Source of the DNA: Thalia democratica
Lineage: Eukaryota
Direction of reading: 5' to 3'
NCBI GenBank assembly: GCA_965202585.1
Contig: OZ241827.1
Coordinates: 57,846,001 to 57,910,000 of the forward strand
DNA length: 64,000 bases
Position numbers: made by a program. This document shows positions 12,001-30,000 of this stretch, in pieces; within the stretch, counting starts at the first letter, position 1; each line of letters starts with the position of its first letter.

Positions 12001-15000
12001 ACTAGAATTAGTAAAGTTTATTTTCCTCGAGTAATATCATAAATCTTACTTCGAATAAAATATTTTTTGCATTTTTAATTGTTATTTAAAACTTTTTAAA
12101 TGTTTTTAAAAACAAGGTTAATTCAGAAAAATGCAAAAAAAAATGTAACCAATAAAAAAATTAGGTTTAAGAATAACTAAGGTACATTAAATATTATCTG
12201 GAACAAGTTATAATTTTCTTAATTTTTACAGCTAGTTTTGTTTTTTTAATACAAGAGCAAGTTTAAATGTTTGATTAATTAAAGTTTGAGCAAACACTTT
12301 TTTTGACAGACAGCTAGTTAAACAGGCTTGATTGTTTAGAGGTAAACCTAATTAGCCTTTATAACTACAACTTAATATATAACTTTTTATTTTGCAGCTC
12401 AGTGCTTTAAAAACTGTTTGTTATACTTTTTACTGTCTTCATTTAGCTTTTTGATCGGCCTTTTTTAAAGTCGTGTTATAAATTTTATAATCGATAAGCA
12501 ATTGTTATTTTTATATGAGAAAAAAATTATATTTTGTTAAGAGATTTGTTTTATACATGTAAGTCAAAAATTTAACTATCATAGTAATTTTTTACTATAT
12601 AAAGTTAAACTTAGACGAACTTGACAACTGTATGTTCTAAACAAAAAGTATATTTTTAATTTAGTTCTAAATAAAAAAGATTATTTATGTTGAAGTTATG
12701 GATAAATAACTTTCTAAAATAACCGTTTTAATATATTTTTTAATGATACTTAAACTAATTTAAAATAATAATTAAAAGTTCTTGAAAAAAAAATCTGAAT
12801 TGTATTAGTTTTTTTAAGAAAAACTAATTTTGTTCAAGAAAAACAAAAACATGGTACTTTAATTAAAACTTAAATATTTGAAAACTATATAAAAACATAT
12901 ACTTTTTTAGAAAAATAAAACGACTCTCTTGATTATATAATGATTAAAAAAGACTTCAGGAAGAAATAATACATTGAAAATACCAACTTTGAGTCTCTGC
13001 AGATTGGAAAAATAAATTAATAAAAAATGATCAGAAAAGTTCTGATTTGTAAAATCATAATCATCATCCTGGCCAATCAGTGTTGCAGCGGAAGCTTGGG
13101 TGCAAGTAGCAACACCGAGTCGTCTGTTGGCAAGTTTAGTGATGAGCTTAAACATTTAGATGTATTGGAGCCTGGGAAAGTTGCAGAAAGAGAAGTAAAA
13201 GAAAGTAGTGCGCAGACGGATCAAAATAAAAGGTCCATTCAGCTCGTTAAGCAGGCTGTCAAGGAAATAAGAGCCCAGTGAGTTTGGCAGTTGATTTTAT
13301 TTTAACTGTTTGTTTATTTAAACGTAAAAATTTACATCTTGTAAAATAAGACTTTTTCTTTTGTAAAAGTTACACGGATGAACTAAATAATGGTCAGCTA
13401 CTTTTTTTATGGTTTTATTCGATAGCATGTTGTTACAGTAACTTTTTAGCTGTTTGATGCCAAAAATCATTCAGAGCCGACACTTTTAACCTTACCTTAC
13501 CCTCATTTATTAATTAGTTAAAGAAAACAAAAGGGTCGTGCAAGTTTAAAAGATGGTTTACAAACTTAAAAACGATTTAAGTTTCAAATATTATCTACAG
13601 TTTTCTAAACAATACGGTTATATATATATATATTTTTATTCTGTTTTGTCATAATAACTAAAAGCGAAAAATATTAACTACACCTATTTCAATAGCCATT
13701 ATCAAACATATCGGATAAAATAACTTGTTCAAACTATTGTTAAAGCAATTGAAATTTACTTAATTTAATATGCAATAAAAACTTCATTGAGCTACTGTTT
13801 TCCAAAGGCAAACATCGTATAAATTACACTCTACTTAAACAACTTACCATAAAAGCAAAGTTGTGTGCTTTACGTATTAAGTTTACTGGATGACTGGGCA
13901 TATATTTAATTTACTTCTACTGCTTCATTTCATCGTTCGAGTTGAAACGCAACAAGCTTACTAATTAAATTCAAATATTTGTCGAAACTGTTCTAAGTAG
14001 TAATTTGGCTAATCGCGCTTAGGAGGTATGTCATAATTAACAAAACCCAAACTTTTTTTTTTAGAGCAGAGCTCAGCTGTGGCTTGCCAATAATAATATT
14101 TGAAATCTTAAACCACCGAAACCCAGCAAAACGTCCGATTAAAACCTTTTATTAAAGCGAAACATTTCAAGCATGTGTCTGAGCTCTGCTGAGGAATAGA
14201 ACAGCCGAGCTAGAATGTAATAAGCACCTTAAGTTAGTATATTTCCTGTTTTTTTTTCGCCGTACATTTGAGTTGTAAACTATTTCGTCATGTTTTAATG
14301 GGTTTTCATTTGTTACAAAGTGAAGGGCCATTTGGTCTGCGGCGTAAGTGCGGTGGCAAAAAAGGTATAATTTCATGTCATGAGCTGAAAGAAAATTGTT
14401 TTTGTGATGCTCCGAACAAAAGAAGCTGTCTAAACAGAGATTTGAAAAGATTTCCATCTGCTAAGAGTTTTCTATTGGTTTTGTTTGTCTAGTTCAATCA
14501 AGTTTAAATGTCTTTATTGAAATTATTTGTAGAGGTTATGTATTTTTTTTAAAAGTATGATGAAATTTGAAAACTTTCATATTTTTAACCAGTCATTTAG
14601 TAATAAAAAATAAACAATGGTAGCGTTGAAAAAGTATATTTAAAATATCTTTTACAACTAAAAAGTATTATCAATGTATAATTATGTATAATAAAGGAAC
14701 ACTTTAACAAATATCACACAATTTGTACATTAACCAGAAGTTTAGTGCTTTCTTTTTAGATAGTTAAAGTAAATAAGTACGGAAAAATAACTTTTATTTT
14801 TTACAAAAGTACAAAAATCAAGTAAAATTTTTGCACTGCAATTTCAAACTTGAAAACTCAATTCAGCTTCATTATGCTTGATTTTCTTTAGAAAACATGT
14901 AGTGTAGAAAAAACTGTTAGTGTAAATAAACCGGGAACGATATTGCAGAAGTTGCAAACGTTTACGGATTTTTTGCAAACAAAAAATAAAGTGTCCGATT

Positions 15001-27000: not shown

Positions 27001-30000
27001 CACATAGCTTTGTTGATTTTAGTTTAACTTCTATTTCTTTTTGTTCATTTTATCGATTGCTTTATTTCTTTTAGGTTAAAGAGTTTATATTAAATTTGTT
27101 TAATTGTTTAGCTCGTAAGAAATTGTTTTAGCATGTGGTGTATGACTCGATAACTGAAAGGATTTTTTTGTAAACCAGGTCCTTGACCAAACTTTTTGAG
27201 CGCTATTTTTTATCTTTAAATAAACAATATACATAATGACGCATCTTTAATACTTTATGAAATGAATTATTATTATCTCTTTAAAAATGGTTTAATTTAA
27301 AGTTTTATCAAAATACAAATTTATGCTAACTTTATTCTTTCATTTCGTTTCGAAATAAAATCACTATTTTAAAACAAGAACAATTGAAGCTATATATACA
27401 TAAAACAATACTCTTAAGTTTATAAAGTTCTGAAAAACTAATTCAGTATTTTACAACAAACTGAAGAAGATTTTACTTTTTTTCATCCTTTTTCAATAGC
27501 TTAAGCATACTTTTAAAATTTCAACTATACGGTTTGTTTCAGTTTTATTCACCTTGATCATAAAACACGACGTAATTCTTGTCTTTAACTATTCAGACGA
27601 GCGCCTATAATATTACATGATTGTTCACGTATTTTAATAAATAAATTGATAATTAGTGTCAGGTATCATCCGCTCATTTATTTCTGTCTTTTTATAGTCT
27701 GTTATTTTTAGCGCCTTTGTAATGTGTTATTCGGTTTAAGTCTTGATTTGATTGAATTAATCTATAAATTTTCTAACTTTTTCCCATGTTTAAGCCTCCT
27801 TTGTTTTTATTTTAGTTGACTGTTTTCAAGTATACCAAACAAAACTTTTCATCCGAATTTAGCTCCTAACTAAATTGCTATATAACTAATTTTTTTACTA
27901 ATTCAAGAATATTTAGCAGAATTTAAATAACATTTTTTAATTTCTATGTTTTTACAAACCAGTTTAAAAAATTACATCTTGTTGGATCATCTTTTTTAAC
28001 CAATAAAAACTTTAATACAGTTAAATGCTTACCTAATTTTAACAAAAATCATAACAATGCCACTTTATTAAAAACAAACTAATTTTAACATTCATTATAA
28101 CAGGTATTACGCAAACGAATGGAGCAAATGTTCAGTTGATTGCGGAAATGGAACAAAATTCAGGAAAATATCCTGTGTGGTTCTCATGTCAGACGGAACT
28201 GTTCGCCAGGTTGCCATGGAAAGTTGCCGTAGCAACCAGCAACTTCCGCCCCAAAAAGAAACCTGCTTCAGTAACTCGTGCCCGGATTGGAAGCCGAAGC
28301 CATGGAAACAGGTATAAAACTGTTTTTTATATTAGTAAACATGTACTGTGGTATATACAATATGAGGCTTTATTAGTTTATTTATTTCATGTAAAAGTTG
28401 ATAAAATGTTTAGTTTATTATAATCTAATAACAGTGTAGCAAGAAATGTTATGGTGTTGGAATTGGAGTTCAAACAAGACATATTCACTGTGTGGCTAAT
28501 AACAACAAGGAGTTTCATAAAACTCACTGTAAACATTTACCAAAACCAAATAGGTCGGTATGATACTATTGTTTTTTTTCTTTAAACATTGACTAATTCA
28601 AATTCCAATTATTATCTGCGCACCATTGTTAAATTAGAACCTTGAGTAAAAGCATGTTCACAATAAATAATTTATTAATTAACCAGAAAACAAAGCTGTT
28701 CAAACAGCCGATGTCAGCCAGTTTGGAGACCGAGTCACTGGTCCGTTTGCTCGGCAACTTGCGGCAGCCATGGCATTAAAACGAGAGTTCTTGGCTGCTA
28801 CTACAAGGGCAGGCCCAGCCAGGCGGCGGGTGCTCGTTGCTTAGCAACAACACGACCGGAAGTTGCAGTCCCTTGCAACAGAATACCCTGCGGTTAGAAA
28901 TAAAATGTTTATGTATTATTGAATAAAGAGATAAAATATTTTTTTTTACTTTTCTAAAATTAAATGCGTAGTTTCTTGACAGTTTAAAACTTACAGATTG
29001 CAATCAAAGTTCAAACATATGCAGATGAGAATGTTGGTATGAACTGATGCCTATGGAACACATGAAAGGAAATGGTGTAATGTTTATAACGTTGTTTGGA
29101 AGTTGGGTGTTTTAGGATATAGAAAGTCAAGTTTGTTTTTAGATTACTTGTAACTTGGACATGTCTCAGAAAGAAAGATTGTTTTTAGTGAAATTCGTTT
29201 TAAATGTACTTTATCTATGTGTTAAGTTTAATTTTAGTTAAGGTTTCAATTAAATTGTTGCTTATAAAAAATTTTGCTCTTTCAACTCAACACCTTCATA
29301 AAAAGTTTAGAGCTGCTTGAAAAAAAAACTTTTGTCATTTAAATACTTTATTTAATTTTTTCTATAACTTCTTATAACATTAATAGACTTTATAATGTTT
29401 TATTAAATTTTGAAACATATGTCTTCAAAAAATACTAAAACTGATTCTTTTTTATAAAAGGTTTAGAAAGTTTACTATAATCATATATTTTGAGTTTCTT
29501 CATTTATATTTATACTGCCTAATAAATTAAAAAAACAATTTGCTGTTTATTAAATAGTGTGCTTTTTTAGAAATATTTAAAACATGTTTAAGTACTTTTA
29601 TATTTATATAGTACAATTTAAACAAAAACAAAAATTAAACTTTTAAAATTAAGTAATTAAAAAATGATACGAATACTAATTAAATTCTAAAATTTACCTG
29701 CATAGATTTAAAAGTTTTACTTATTTGAAGATAATGAAATATGTCGTTTACAACATTAAAAAAGTTATTTCTTAGAAATATATTTTAAAACCTAACGTTT
29801 TTAGTTTGGACTACAACTTGTAAATGACTATCAAACGCCTGTCTAAACGGTCTTGCTTGTTTTAAAAAGATTTAGTTGTTGTTTTTAGAAATTGTTTGTC
29901 CTGTTTTTTACTATAAAAAATATAAATTGTGCTTTTATTTTAAATTGAAACAACTATAAAATGAAGTCGTACAACATATTTAGTAGTTTCATAAACCATA

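What the first reader, a model, noticed from the sequence alone, without database searches (positions are those of the whole stretch)
13027..29047. Stand-alone 'short punctin': its own signal-peptide exon spliced into an ancestral internal TSP1 acceptor, with no Cys-rich/spacer region and no PLAC
Seen: exon 1 (signal peptide plus ~60 aa ending near QNKR) joins in phase 2 to a W-initiated TSP1 exon, the same phase-2 junction type seen between exons 14 and 15 (CPPR|YY). No Cys-rich/spacer exons are visible in 1-13027. Stops just upstream of the ATG and a 24- versus 25-nt leader in the two arms rule out an N-terminal extension through this exon. Established: canonical ADAMTSL1/3 begin with TSP1-Cys-rich-spacer and end in PLAC, and C. 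elegans madd-4 makes a short TSP1/Ig isoform (MADD-4B) from an internal promoter. Inference: this is either an independently evolved, duplicated short-punctin-type gene or the short isoform of a longer locus lying outside the window.
Basis: partly seen in the sequence, partly recalled or inferred. Interest (0 to 1): 0.65.

Follow-up and report, generated by a model that had tools for sequence, protein, structure and literature searches.

The report
Duplicated short punctin-like TSP1/Ig gene
This is a real gene, present as two mirror-image copies, for a secreted protein of thrombospondin and immunoglobulin repeats that resembles the rear part of ADAMTS-like "punctin" proteins but starts with its own signal-peptide exon and has no usual end domain; interesting to specialists, not a new kind of system.

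Summary
A 17-exon + strand gene runs from ATG 13027 to stop 28895-28897 (1086 aa). Exon 1 (13027-13277) has a hydrophobic start and ends in phase 2. Exon 2 (19199) opens at the first W of a TSP1 repeat, at the same domain position and phase as the exon 14/15 junction.

Scanned exon by exon, Pfam finds ADAMTS-type TSP1 in 7 exons and I-set Ig in 5. None of 531 flanking, intronic and antisense ORFs matches an ADAMTS Cys-rich, spacer, PLAC, Kunitz or protease family.

The gene lies in an inverted duplication of at least 23.7 kb, and a second intact copy on the - strand (57198-41296) faces it tail to tail. Exons differ 2.15% against 5.6% for introns, and dN/dS is 0.36. This convergent partner limits where a PLAC exon could lie, so the PLAC-less end is well supported.

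The "stand-alone" claim stays open. Upstream exons beyond the window cannot be excluded, and no homologue search or phylogeny was possible. I read it as a new variant of a known kind, of moderate-low interest.

The parts
13027..13277 (+). Exon 1 of copy A. ATG, hydrophobic signal-peptide-like start (MIRKVLICKIIIIILANQCCSGS...), then about 55 residues with no family match. Ends in phase 2 at CA|GTGAGT.
   Evidence: No Pfam hit. It is the most hydrophobic of the 57 ATG-to-donor candidates found on both strands of the window.
13001..13026 (+). Leader: AG at 13001-13002, then 24 nt (25 nt in arm B) to the ATG, with an in-frame TAA at 13021-13023.
   Evidence: alignment of the two arms.
19199..19418 (+). 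Exon 2: a complete TSP1 repeat starting at its first W, plus the W-motif strand of the next repeat. Phase-2 acceptor, phase-0 donor.
   Evidence: TSP1_ADAMTS E 1.6e-10, profile positions 1-55.
19504..19692 (+). Exon 3: the rest of TSP1 repeat 2 and the start of repeat 3.
   Evidence: TSP1_ADAMTS E 6.8e-5.
21009..21180 (+). Exon 4: the rest of TSP1 repeat 3.
   Evidence: TSP1_ADAMTS E 1.8e-4.
21313..22104 (+). Exons 5 (21313-21505) and 6 (21923-22104). No family match. The Cys...W...Cys spacing looks Ig-like by eye only.
   Evidence: No Pfam hit even at E up to 10.
22908..23260 (+). Exons 7 (22908-23017, Lys-rich, 12 nt longer in copy B and in frame) and 8 (23110-23260): a linker with no family match.
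23445..26531 (+). Exons 9 (23445-23730), 10 (23872-24128), 11 (25681-25863), 12 (26117-26245) and 13 (26316-26531): a Pro/Thr-rich linker, then three I-set Ig domains, each split over two exons.
   Evidence: I-set E 4.9e-6, 5.8e-6, 2.7e-9 and 6.7e-10 for the ORFs holding exons 9, 10, 11 and 13. Exon 12 alone gave no hit. The PDB search with exon 13 gave titin, NCAM2 and DSCAM Ig domains.
26664..28897 (+). Exons 14 (26664-26847), 15 (28104-28311), 16 (28435-28553) and 17 (28687-28897, stop TAG at 28895-28897): four TSP1 repeats. The protein ends ...NRIPCG.
   Evidence: TSP1_ADAMTS E 2.7e-5, 6.5e-12, 1.3e-7 and 1.5e-11.
29025..29047 (+). Optional 23-nt terminal coding piece, used if the donor G|GT at 28892/28893 is used. 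It would replace the final G with DENVGMN.
   Evidence: The stretch 29025-29076 is identical in both arms, and AG is kept in both (CAG in A, TAG in B). Whether it is used is not shown.
41296..57198 (-). Copy B: the same 17 exons, with all splice dinucleotides and reading frames intact. Exon 7 is 12 nt longer and the stop lies two codons later (...CGEK).
5601..29285 (.). Arm A of the inverted duplication. Its partner is 63994-40903, which is cut by the window end. The unique spacer is 29286-40902.
   Evidence: 87.9% over 5601-8253, 94.0% over 8840-29285.
40679..40876 (-). Decayed third copy of the last TSP1 exon, just inside the spacer next to arm B. Cysteines and tryptophans are lost.
   Evidence: 75-78% identity to exon 17 of both copies. 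TSP1_ADAMTS only E 0.11.

Best explanation
The locus is a real, recently duplicated protein-coding gene. Its product is a secreted, non-catalytic matrix protein made of ADAMTS-type thrombospondin repeats and I-set Ig domains.

Its order is: signal peptide, about 55-residue tail, 3 TSP1, about 210 residues with no family match, 3 Ig, 4 TSP1, end.

Transcription most likely starts within or shortly upstream of the window, and translation starts at ATG 13027. Exon 1 supplies the secretion signal and is spliced in phase 2 onto an acceptor that sits exactly at the start of a TSP1 unit. That boundary is of the kind found between consecutive TSP1 units further down the same gene. The protein ends after the seventh TSP1 without a PLAC domain.

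In design it is the equivalent of the short Punctin/MADD-4 form, a TSP1/Ig scaffold without the Cys-rich and spacer modules. By inference only, it would act as an extracellular scaffold that binds matrix and cell-surface partners through its TSP1 and Ig repeats.

Shown: the exon chain, the domain content, the two intact copies, purifying selection on the coding exons taken together, and the absence of the missing domains from the window. Inferred: secretion, use of exon 1 as the first coding exon, function, and descent from an ADAMTS-like ancestor.
For: - Exon chain: 17 exons chain without a phase conflict, and GT...AG is kept at all 16 introns in both copies.
- Domains: TSP1_ADAMTS is the best family for all 7 TSP1-bearing exons and I-set for the Ig exons. 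An Atlas feature search with exon 15 gave TSP1_ADAMTS clusters, including 'Papilin (Fragment)', at 0.94-0.95.
- Selection: exon divergence between copies is 2.15% against 5.6% in introns (p 1e-18). dN/dS is 0.36 (p 2.5e-4). The only exon indel is in frame.
- Exon 1: an in-frame TAA lies 3 nt before the ATG, and a 1-nt indel in the leader separates the arms. On the + strand of 1-19198, only 3 ATG-started stretches end in a phase-2 donor of 7/9 or better, and exon 1 is the most hydrophobic of them. It is also the most hydrophobic of the 57 candidates of any phase on both strands of the window.
- Matching boundaries: exons 2 and 15 begin at the same TSP1 column and in the same phase. Both run on into the next repeat's W strand and end in phase 0 just before 'CS'.
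- Missing domains: 0 of 120 + strand ORFs in 1-13026, 0 of 141 + strand ORFs in intron 1 and the spacer, 0 of 143 - strand ORFs (spacer and arm A) and 0 of 127 - strand ORFs in 1-13026 match an ADAMTS Cys-rich, spacer, PLAC, Kunitz, protease, TSP1 or Ig family at E up to 0.1. With the same single-ORF method, 11 of the 12 exons lying in the TSP1 and Ig blocks were recognised.
- 3' limit: copy B converges on copy A across an 11.6-kb spacer.
Against: - Exon 1 alone shows no purifying selection: 6 non-synonymous against 1 synonymous difference. Its coding status rests on the ATG, hydrophobicity, phase fit and lack of indels.
- No signal-peptide predictor, transcript data or homologue was available.
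- The AG 24/25 nt before the ATG and the internal-type acceptor of exon 2 both fit a larger transcription unit.
- The duplicated block extends at least 7.4 kb upstream of the ATG and is still running at the window edge, so the duplicated unit is larger than the modelled gene.
- A second ATG-started, hydrophobic, phase-2 candidate exon at 18422-18516 could also feed exon 2.
- Six of 17 exons (1, 5, 6, 7, 8, 12) have no family match on their own.
- A Cys-rich or spacer domain split over short exons (ORFs under 25 aa) or strongly diverged would have been missed.
Confidence: 0.6

Rival explanations
1. The modelled gene is only the short, internal-promoter isoform of a longer ADAMTS-like locus. The TSP1, Cys-rich and spacer exons would lie more than 13 kb upstream, outside the window, and would splice in phase 2 directly into exon 2, skipping exon 1. 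This is how madd-4 makes its long and short forms.
For: - The exon 2 acceptor is of the internal inter-TSP1 type.
- An AG acceptor with a pyrimidine-rich run lies 24/25 nt before the ATG.
- The inverted duplication is still running at the window edge.
- Passages in PMC9083331, PMC13142758 and PMC11385328 describe exactly this arrangement for madd-4, with the short form having its own first exon.
Against: - No recognisable exon of any family lies in the 13 kb upstream on either strand.
- The largest intron inside the gene is 5.9 kb, so a first intron of more than 13 kb would be an outlier.
- Neither point excludes this reading.
Confidence: 0.3
2. The protein is not derived from an ADAMTS-like/punctin ancestor. 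It would be an unrelated TSP1/Ig mosaic, or a fragment of another matrix family such as papilin- or hemicentin-like proteins, assembled by exon shuffling of phase-compatible repeats.
For: - The defining ADAMTS-like cassette and PLAC are both absent.
- PDB and Atlas searches with single exons return only generic TSP1 and Ig relatives: thrombospondin-1, TRAP, titin, NCAM2, IgSF10.
- By a motif I recall, the O-fucosylation consensus, only repeat 4 (CTDTCGSG) fits fully among the 7 repeats printed.
Against: - The ADAMTS-type TSP1 profile beats the general TSP_1 profile in all 7 exons.
- From my recall of ADAMTSL1/3, not checked here, the block order (3 TSP1, then Ig domains, then 4 TSP1) mirrors their post-spacer part.
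- No Kunitz, EGF, VWA, transmembrane or ZU5 match appears anywhere in the window.
Confidence: 0.15
3. The two 'copies' are one gene. The inverted arms would be two haplotypes of a polymorphic diploid, mis-joined by the assembler.
For: The arms differ by about 6%, indels included, evenly over exons, introns and flanks. This is within the range of heterozygosity in some invertebrates (my recall).
Against: - There is no N or gap anywhere in the window.
- A unique 11.6-kb spacer joins the arms.
- A decayed extra exon copy sits next to arm B only.
- A 590-nt segment (about 8254-8839) is present in arm A only.
- Perfect-identity tracts of 644 and 385 nt lie amid 6% divergence, as expected for gene conversion between two linked copies.
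- None of this is decisive without reads.
Confidence: 0.12

Closest known systems
Punctin/MADD-4 short isoform (MADD-4B / MADD-4S / PunctinS) of C. elegans
   Same: Secreted TSP1/Ig scaffold without the ADAMTS Cys-rich and spacer modules. It has 7 TSP1 repeats and starts at its own first exon joined onto TSP1-coding exons (passages in PMC9083331, PMC13142758 and PMC11385328; window).
   Different: MADD-4S has one Ig domain and ends in PLAC. It is an isoform of a locus that also makes a long form. Here there are three Pfam-supported Ig domains, with a possible fourth seen by eye, and no PLAC. No long form is visible, and the gene exists as an inverted pair.
Vertebrate ADAMTSL1 and ADAMTSL3 (punctin-1/-2)
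   Same: ADAMTS-type TSP1 repeats are interleaved with Ig domains and there is no protease domain. PMC13142758 (passage) states that PunctinL shares its domain organisation with ADAMTSL1/3. From my recall only, the post-spacer part has 3 TSP1, an Ig, then 3 Ig followed by TSP1 repeats.
   Different: ADAMTSL1/3 begin with TSP1, Cys-rich module and spacer and end in PLAC. Neither is found in the window.
Papilin
   Same: ADAMTS-type TSP1 repeats plus Ig domains in a secreted matrix protein. An Atlas feature hit 'Papilin (Fragment)' scored 0.94 for exon 15.
   Different: From my recall, papilin has the N-terminal ADAMTS cassette and Kunitz domains. No Kunitz or cassette match appears in any of the ORFs scanned.

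Membership tests
ADAMTS-like (ADAMTSL) proteins | TSP1 repeats of the ADAMTS type | tested here: met
   PF19030 is the best family in exons 2, 3, 4, 14, 15, 16 and 17, E 1.8e-4 to 6.5e-12.
ADAMTS-like (ADAMTSL) proteins | N-terminal ancillary cassette: TSP1, ADAMTS Cys-rich module, ADAMTS spacer | tested here: not met
   0 of 120 + strand ORFs (25 aa or more) in 1-13026 and 0 of the 56 + strand ORFs in intron 1 match these families at E up to 0.1. The test covers the window only, so exons further upstream are not excluded.
ADAMTS-like (ADAMTSL) proteins | No protease or disintegrin domain | tested here: met
   No Reprolysin, Pep_M12B or disintegrin match in the exon ORFs or in the 531 other ORFs scanned.
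ADAMTSL1/3-punctin subgroup | Ig (C2/I-set) domains between TSP1 blocks | tested here: met
   I-set matches in the ORFs holding exons 9, 10, 11 and 13, giving three domains.
ADAMTSL1/3-punctin subgroup | C-terminal PLAC domain | tested here: not met
   The protein ends after TSP1 repeat 7 at the stop 28895-28897, or at 29047 with the optional piece. 0 of 85 + strand and 0 of 89 - strand ORFs (27 aa or more) between the two gene ends match PLAC. Convergent copy B limits the region.
ADAMTSL1/3-punctin subgroup | Orthology by tree with ADAMTSL1/3, MADD-4 and nolo | not testable with these tools
The joined protein was not built or searched.
Short Punctin (MADD-4B-type isoform) | Own first exon from an internal promoter, spliced onto exons shared with a long form | tested here: inconclusive
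   An own first exon and an internal-type acceptor are present. A long form and a promoter cannot be tested without flanking sequence and transcripts.
Secreted protein | Cleavable N-terminal signal peptide | tested here: inconclusive
   Basic residues R3 and K4 are followed by a hydrophobic run. The maximum 10-residue Kyte-Doolittle mean is 3.36, the highest of 57 candidates. Small residues (CSGS) follow. No signal-peptide predictor was available.
Papilin | Kunitz domains plus the N-terminal ADAMTS cassette | tested here: not met
   No Kunitz or cassette match in any scan.

The most novel reading that the evidence does not exclude
A truly stand-alone, PLAC-less and spacer-less punctin-type gene. 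A lineage-specific signal-peptide exon, still evolving freely, would have captured an internal inter-TSP1 acceptor of an ADAMTSL1/3-like ancestor and fixed the 'short punctin' design as an independent gene. That gene was then copied into an inverted pair kept similar by gene conversion. The conserved GC-rich island in intron 1 and the candidate exon at 18422-18516 could form a second promoter and first exon.
Probability: 0.25. Interest if true: 0.55.

Novelty: new variant of a known kind. Interest (0 to 1): 0.33.

Why it matters
Punctin/ADAMTSL3 proteins organise synapses and matrix. In C. elegans the short form, which lacks the Cys-rich and spacer modules, has a different job from the long form (passages in PMC9083331 and PMC13142758).

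A gene that encodes only a short form, and also lacks PLAC, would be a natural experiment. It would show which modules the scaffold function needs, and how an alternative-promoter isoform can become a gene of its own. PMC13142758 suggests that TSP8-10 and/or the PLAC domain may mediate Punctin's interaction with collagen CLE-1B. A PLAC-less version would therefore be expected to differ in matrix anchoring; this is my inference.

The inverted pair with conversion tracts is also a clean small example of concerted evolution. If a long form exists outside the window, the finding is an ordinary isoform.

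Tried and rejected
Whole-protein Pfam/InterPro, SignalP-type prediction, structure prediction and a tree were therefore left out. All searches used single exons or single ORFs.
- PDB sequence searches. Exon 2 gave 0 hits. Exon 15 gave 5 generic TSP1 hits. 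Exon 13 gave 54 generic Ig hits. A profile of four TSP1 exons gave 14 generic hits. None tells ADAMTSL from other TSP1 proteins.
- Atlas feature searches with exons 10 and 15 gave generic Ig and TSP1_ADAMTS clusters and no useful taxon or family.
- Exons 1, 5, 6, 7, 8 and 12 at E up to 10 gave nothing relevant. The Ig-like reading of exons 5/6 therefore stays an impression.
- Intron 1 islands. The island at 17738-18258 is not coding by Pfam on either strand. It is not an Rfam family and is not unusually structured (z -1.3). The Cys-containing ORF at 14238-14489 had no relevant match.
- No tRNA, and no dispersed repeats in arm A apart from its partner arm.
- AATAAA is too frequent (445 in the window) to mark a poly(A) site.
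- Not used: structure prediction, fold search and complex prediction, because single exons are half domains. Also not used: genome contigs, phage, plasmid and E. coli collections, which are the wrong kingdom.
Homologues, orthology and the organism stayed unchecked.
- Paper supplements were not consulted.

Full report
**Setting.** The window has about 26% G+C and no N. Nothing suggests a human contig. A self-comparison shows one large inverted duplication. Arm A (5601-29285) pairs with 63994-40903, at 87.9% identity over the outer 2.7 kb and 94.0% over 20.6 kb. A unique 11.6-kb spacer (29286-40902) lies between the arms. Arm B is cut by the window end, so the full size of the duplicated block is unknown.

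**Gene model.** I rebuilt the model from stop-to-stop ORFs, G+C islands and splice sites. I checked it arithmetically without joining any exons.

- The 17 exons are 13027-13277, 19199-19418, 19504-19692, 21009-21180, 21313-21505, 21923-22104, 22908-23017, 23110-23260, 23445-23730, 23872-24128, 25681-25863, 26117-26245, 26316-26531, 26664-26847, 28104-28311, 28435-28553 and 28687-28897.
- They chain without a phase conflict. All 16 introns are GT...AG. The total is 3261 nt, or 1086 codons plus TAG.
- Copy B (57198-41296, - strand) keeps every exon, frame and splice dinucleotide. It has a 12-nt in-frame insertion in exon 7, and its stop lies two codons later.
The donor, the AG and the piece are kept in both arms, and 29025-29076 is identical between them. 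Whether it is used is open. Neither ending carries a further domain.

**Is it a real gene?** Between the arms, exons differ at 70 of 3261 aligned positions (2.15%) and introns at 701 of 12544 (5.6%), Fisher p 1e-18. Introns carry 152 gap columns. Exons carry only the in-frame 12-nt indel. By Nei-Gojobori counts over 16 exons, with exon 7 and split codons left out, there are 26.5 synonymous and 35.5 non-synonymous differences. That gives dN/dS 0.36, binomial p 2.5e-4. At least one copy, and probably both, has been under purifying selection.

Exon 1 is the exception, with 6 non-synonymous and 1 synonymous difference. Two perfect-identity tracts, 644 nt (23099-23742) and 385 nt (28180-28564), span exons and introns alike. 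Fewer than 1e-5 such tracts would be expected at a uniform rate. This points to gene conversion between the copies.

**Domains, exon by exon.**

- TSP1_ADAMTS (PF19030) is the best family in exons 2, 3, 4, 14, 15, 16 and 17.
- I-set is the best family in the ORFs holding exons 9, 10, 11 and 13.
- Exons 1, 5, 6, 7, 8 and 12 have no match on their own.
- Read along the gene, this gives a signal-peptide-like start, 3 TSP1, about 210 residues with no family match, 3 Ig and 4 TSP1. In that unmatched stretch, exons 5/6 have an Ig-like Cys-W-Cys spacing by eye only.
- PDB and Atlas searches with single exons returned only generic TSP1 and Ig relatives.

Exon 1 ends CA|GTGAGT in phase 2. Exon 2 begins with one base and then TGG, the first W of a complete TSP1. 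Exon 15 also begins in phase 2 at the first profile position of a TSP1, and the two starts share an alignment column. Both exons run on into the W strand of the next repeat and end in phase 0 just before 'CS'. This fits an origin from a longer array but does not prove one.

**The 5' end.**

- An in-frame TAA lies 3 nt before the ATG. A 1-nt indel separates the 24-nt and 25-nt leaders of the two arms. No coding extension can therefore pass through this exon.
- On the + strand of 1-19198, only 3 ATG-started stretches end in a phase-2 donor of 7/9 or better. Exon 1 is the most hydrophobic of them, and also of the 57 candidates of any phase on both strands of the window.
- Against over-reading this: the AG at 13001-13002 could accept an upstream non-coding exon or a spliced leader. 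Exon 1 is not under detectable constraint. A second candidate at 18422-18516 is ATG-started and hydrophobic, has a phase-2 donor and is intact in both arms. About 0.06 such candidates would be expected by chance in the intron. It lies 164 nt downstream of a 521-nt GC-rich island (17738-18258) that is 98.8% identical between arms and is neither coding nor a known RNA.

**Missing domains.** I scanned every stop-to-stop ORF on its own against Pfam in four sets.

- 120 + strand ORFs (25 aa or more) in 1-13026.
- 141 + strand ORFs: 56 in intron 1 (25 aa or more) and 85 in 28898-40902 (27 aa or more).
- 143 - strand ORFs: 89 in 28898-41290 (27 aa or more) and 54 in 1-28897 (45 aa or more).
- 127 - strand ORFs (25 aa or more) in 1-13026.

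No set gave a Cys-rich, spacer, PLAC, Kunitz, protease, TSP1 or Ig family. The 6-10 families listed per set each matched one ORF at E 0.005-0.1, which is noise for that many queries. The same method recognised 11 of the 12 exons lying in the TSP1 and Ig blocks. Short or very divergent exons could still be missed.

Copy B converges on copy A, so any PLAC exon would have to lie in the scanned 12 kb. The PLAC-less end is therefore well supported. The missing N-terminal cassette is established only for 13 kb.

**Comparison with what is known.** Passages in PMC9083331 state that MADD-4L has 10 TSP1, a Cys-rich module, a spacer, one Ig and PLAC. They state that MADD-4S, made from an alternative promoter, has 7 TSP1, one Ig and PLAC. 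PMC13142758 (passages) says the same of PunctinL and PunctinS, and that PunctinL shares its organisation with ADAMTSL1/3. PMC11385328 (passages) refers to the first exon and promoter of madd-4B.

The window gene works like the short form in design. It differs in having three or four Ig domains, no PLAC, no visible long form and a duplicated state. It fails two defining features of ADAMTSL membership within the window, so I file it as punctin-like rather than as a demonstrated ADAMTSL member.

**Limits.** The joined protein was not built. No homologue search, tree, signal-peptide predictor, transcript data or flanking sequence was available, and paper supplements were not seen.

**Verdict.** This is a new variant of a known kind, and my interest score is about 0.33.

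Noticed in passing
window 5601-29285 and 40903-63994: The gene sits in an inverted duplication of at least 23.7 kb with an 11.6-kb unique spacer. The two gene copies face each other tail to tail, and arm B runs off the window end.
   Followed up: yes
window 23099-23742 and 28180-28564 (partners 47092-46449 and 42015-41631): Tracts of 644 and 385 nt are perfectly identical between the arms amid about 6% divergence. They span exons and introns, which points to gene conversion.
   Followed up: yes
window 17738-18258 (partner 52491-51971): A 521-nt GC-rich island in intron 1 is 98.8% identical between arms. It has no Pfam or Rfam match and no unusual RNA fold. Its function is unknown; it may be regulatory.
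   Followed up: partly
window 18422-18516: A candidate alternative first exon: ATG, a hydrophobic 31-residue start and a phase-2 donor compatible with exon 2, intact in both arms. About 0.06 such candidates would be expected by chance in the intron.
   Followed up: partly
window 40679-40876 (- strand): A decayed third copy of the last TSP1 exon (75-78% identity, cysteines lost) lies just beyond the inner edge of arm B, with no counterpart next to arm A. It may mark arm B as the source copy.
   Followed up: partly
window 28892-29047: A possible extra splice from G|GT at the last codon to a 23-nt terminal piece. The stop codon itself differs between arms (TAG against GAG AAA TAA), while 29025-29076 is identical.
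   Followed up: partly
window 8254-8839: About 590 nt are present in arm A but absent from arm B (a break between the two blast segments). Outer arm identity drops to 88%.
   Followed up: no
window 10426-10625 (partner near 59805-59606): An upstream stretch with 197 of 200 positions identical between arms and raised G+C (island 10421-10670), 2.4 kb before the ATG. A 56-residue ORF is kept in both arms but has no family match. It could be a non-coding first exon or a regulatory element.
   Followed up: no
window 14238-14489: An ORF with 7 cysteines in intron 1, partly kept in arm B (55780-55905). It had no relevant Pfam match.
   Followed up: partly
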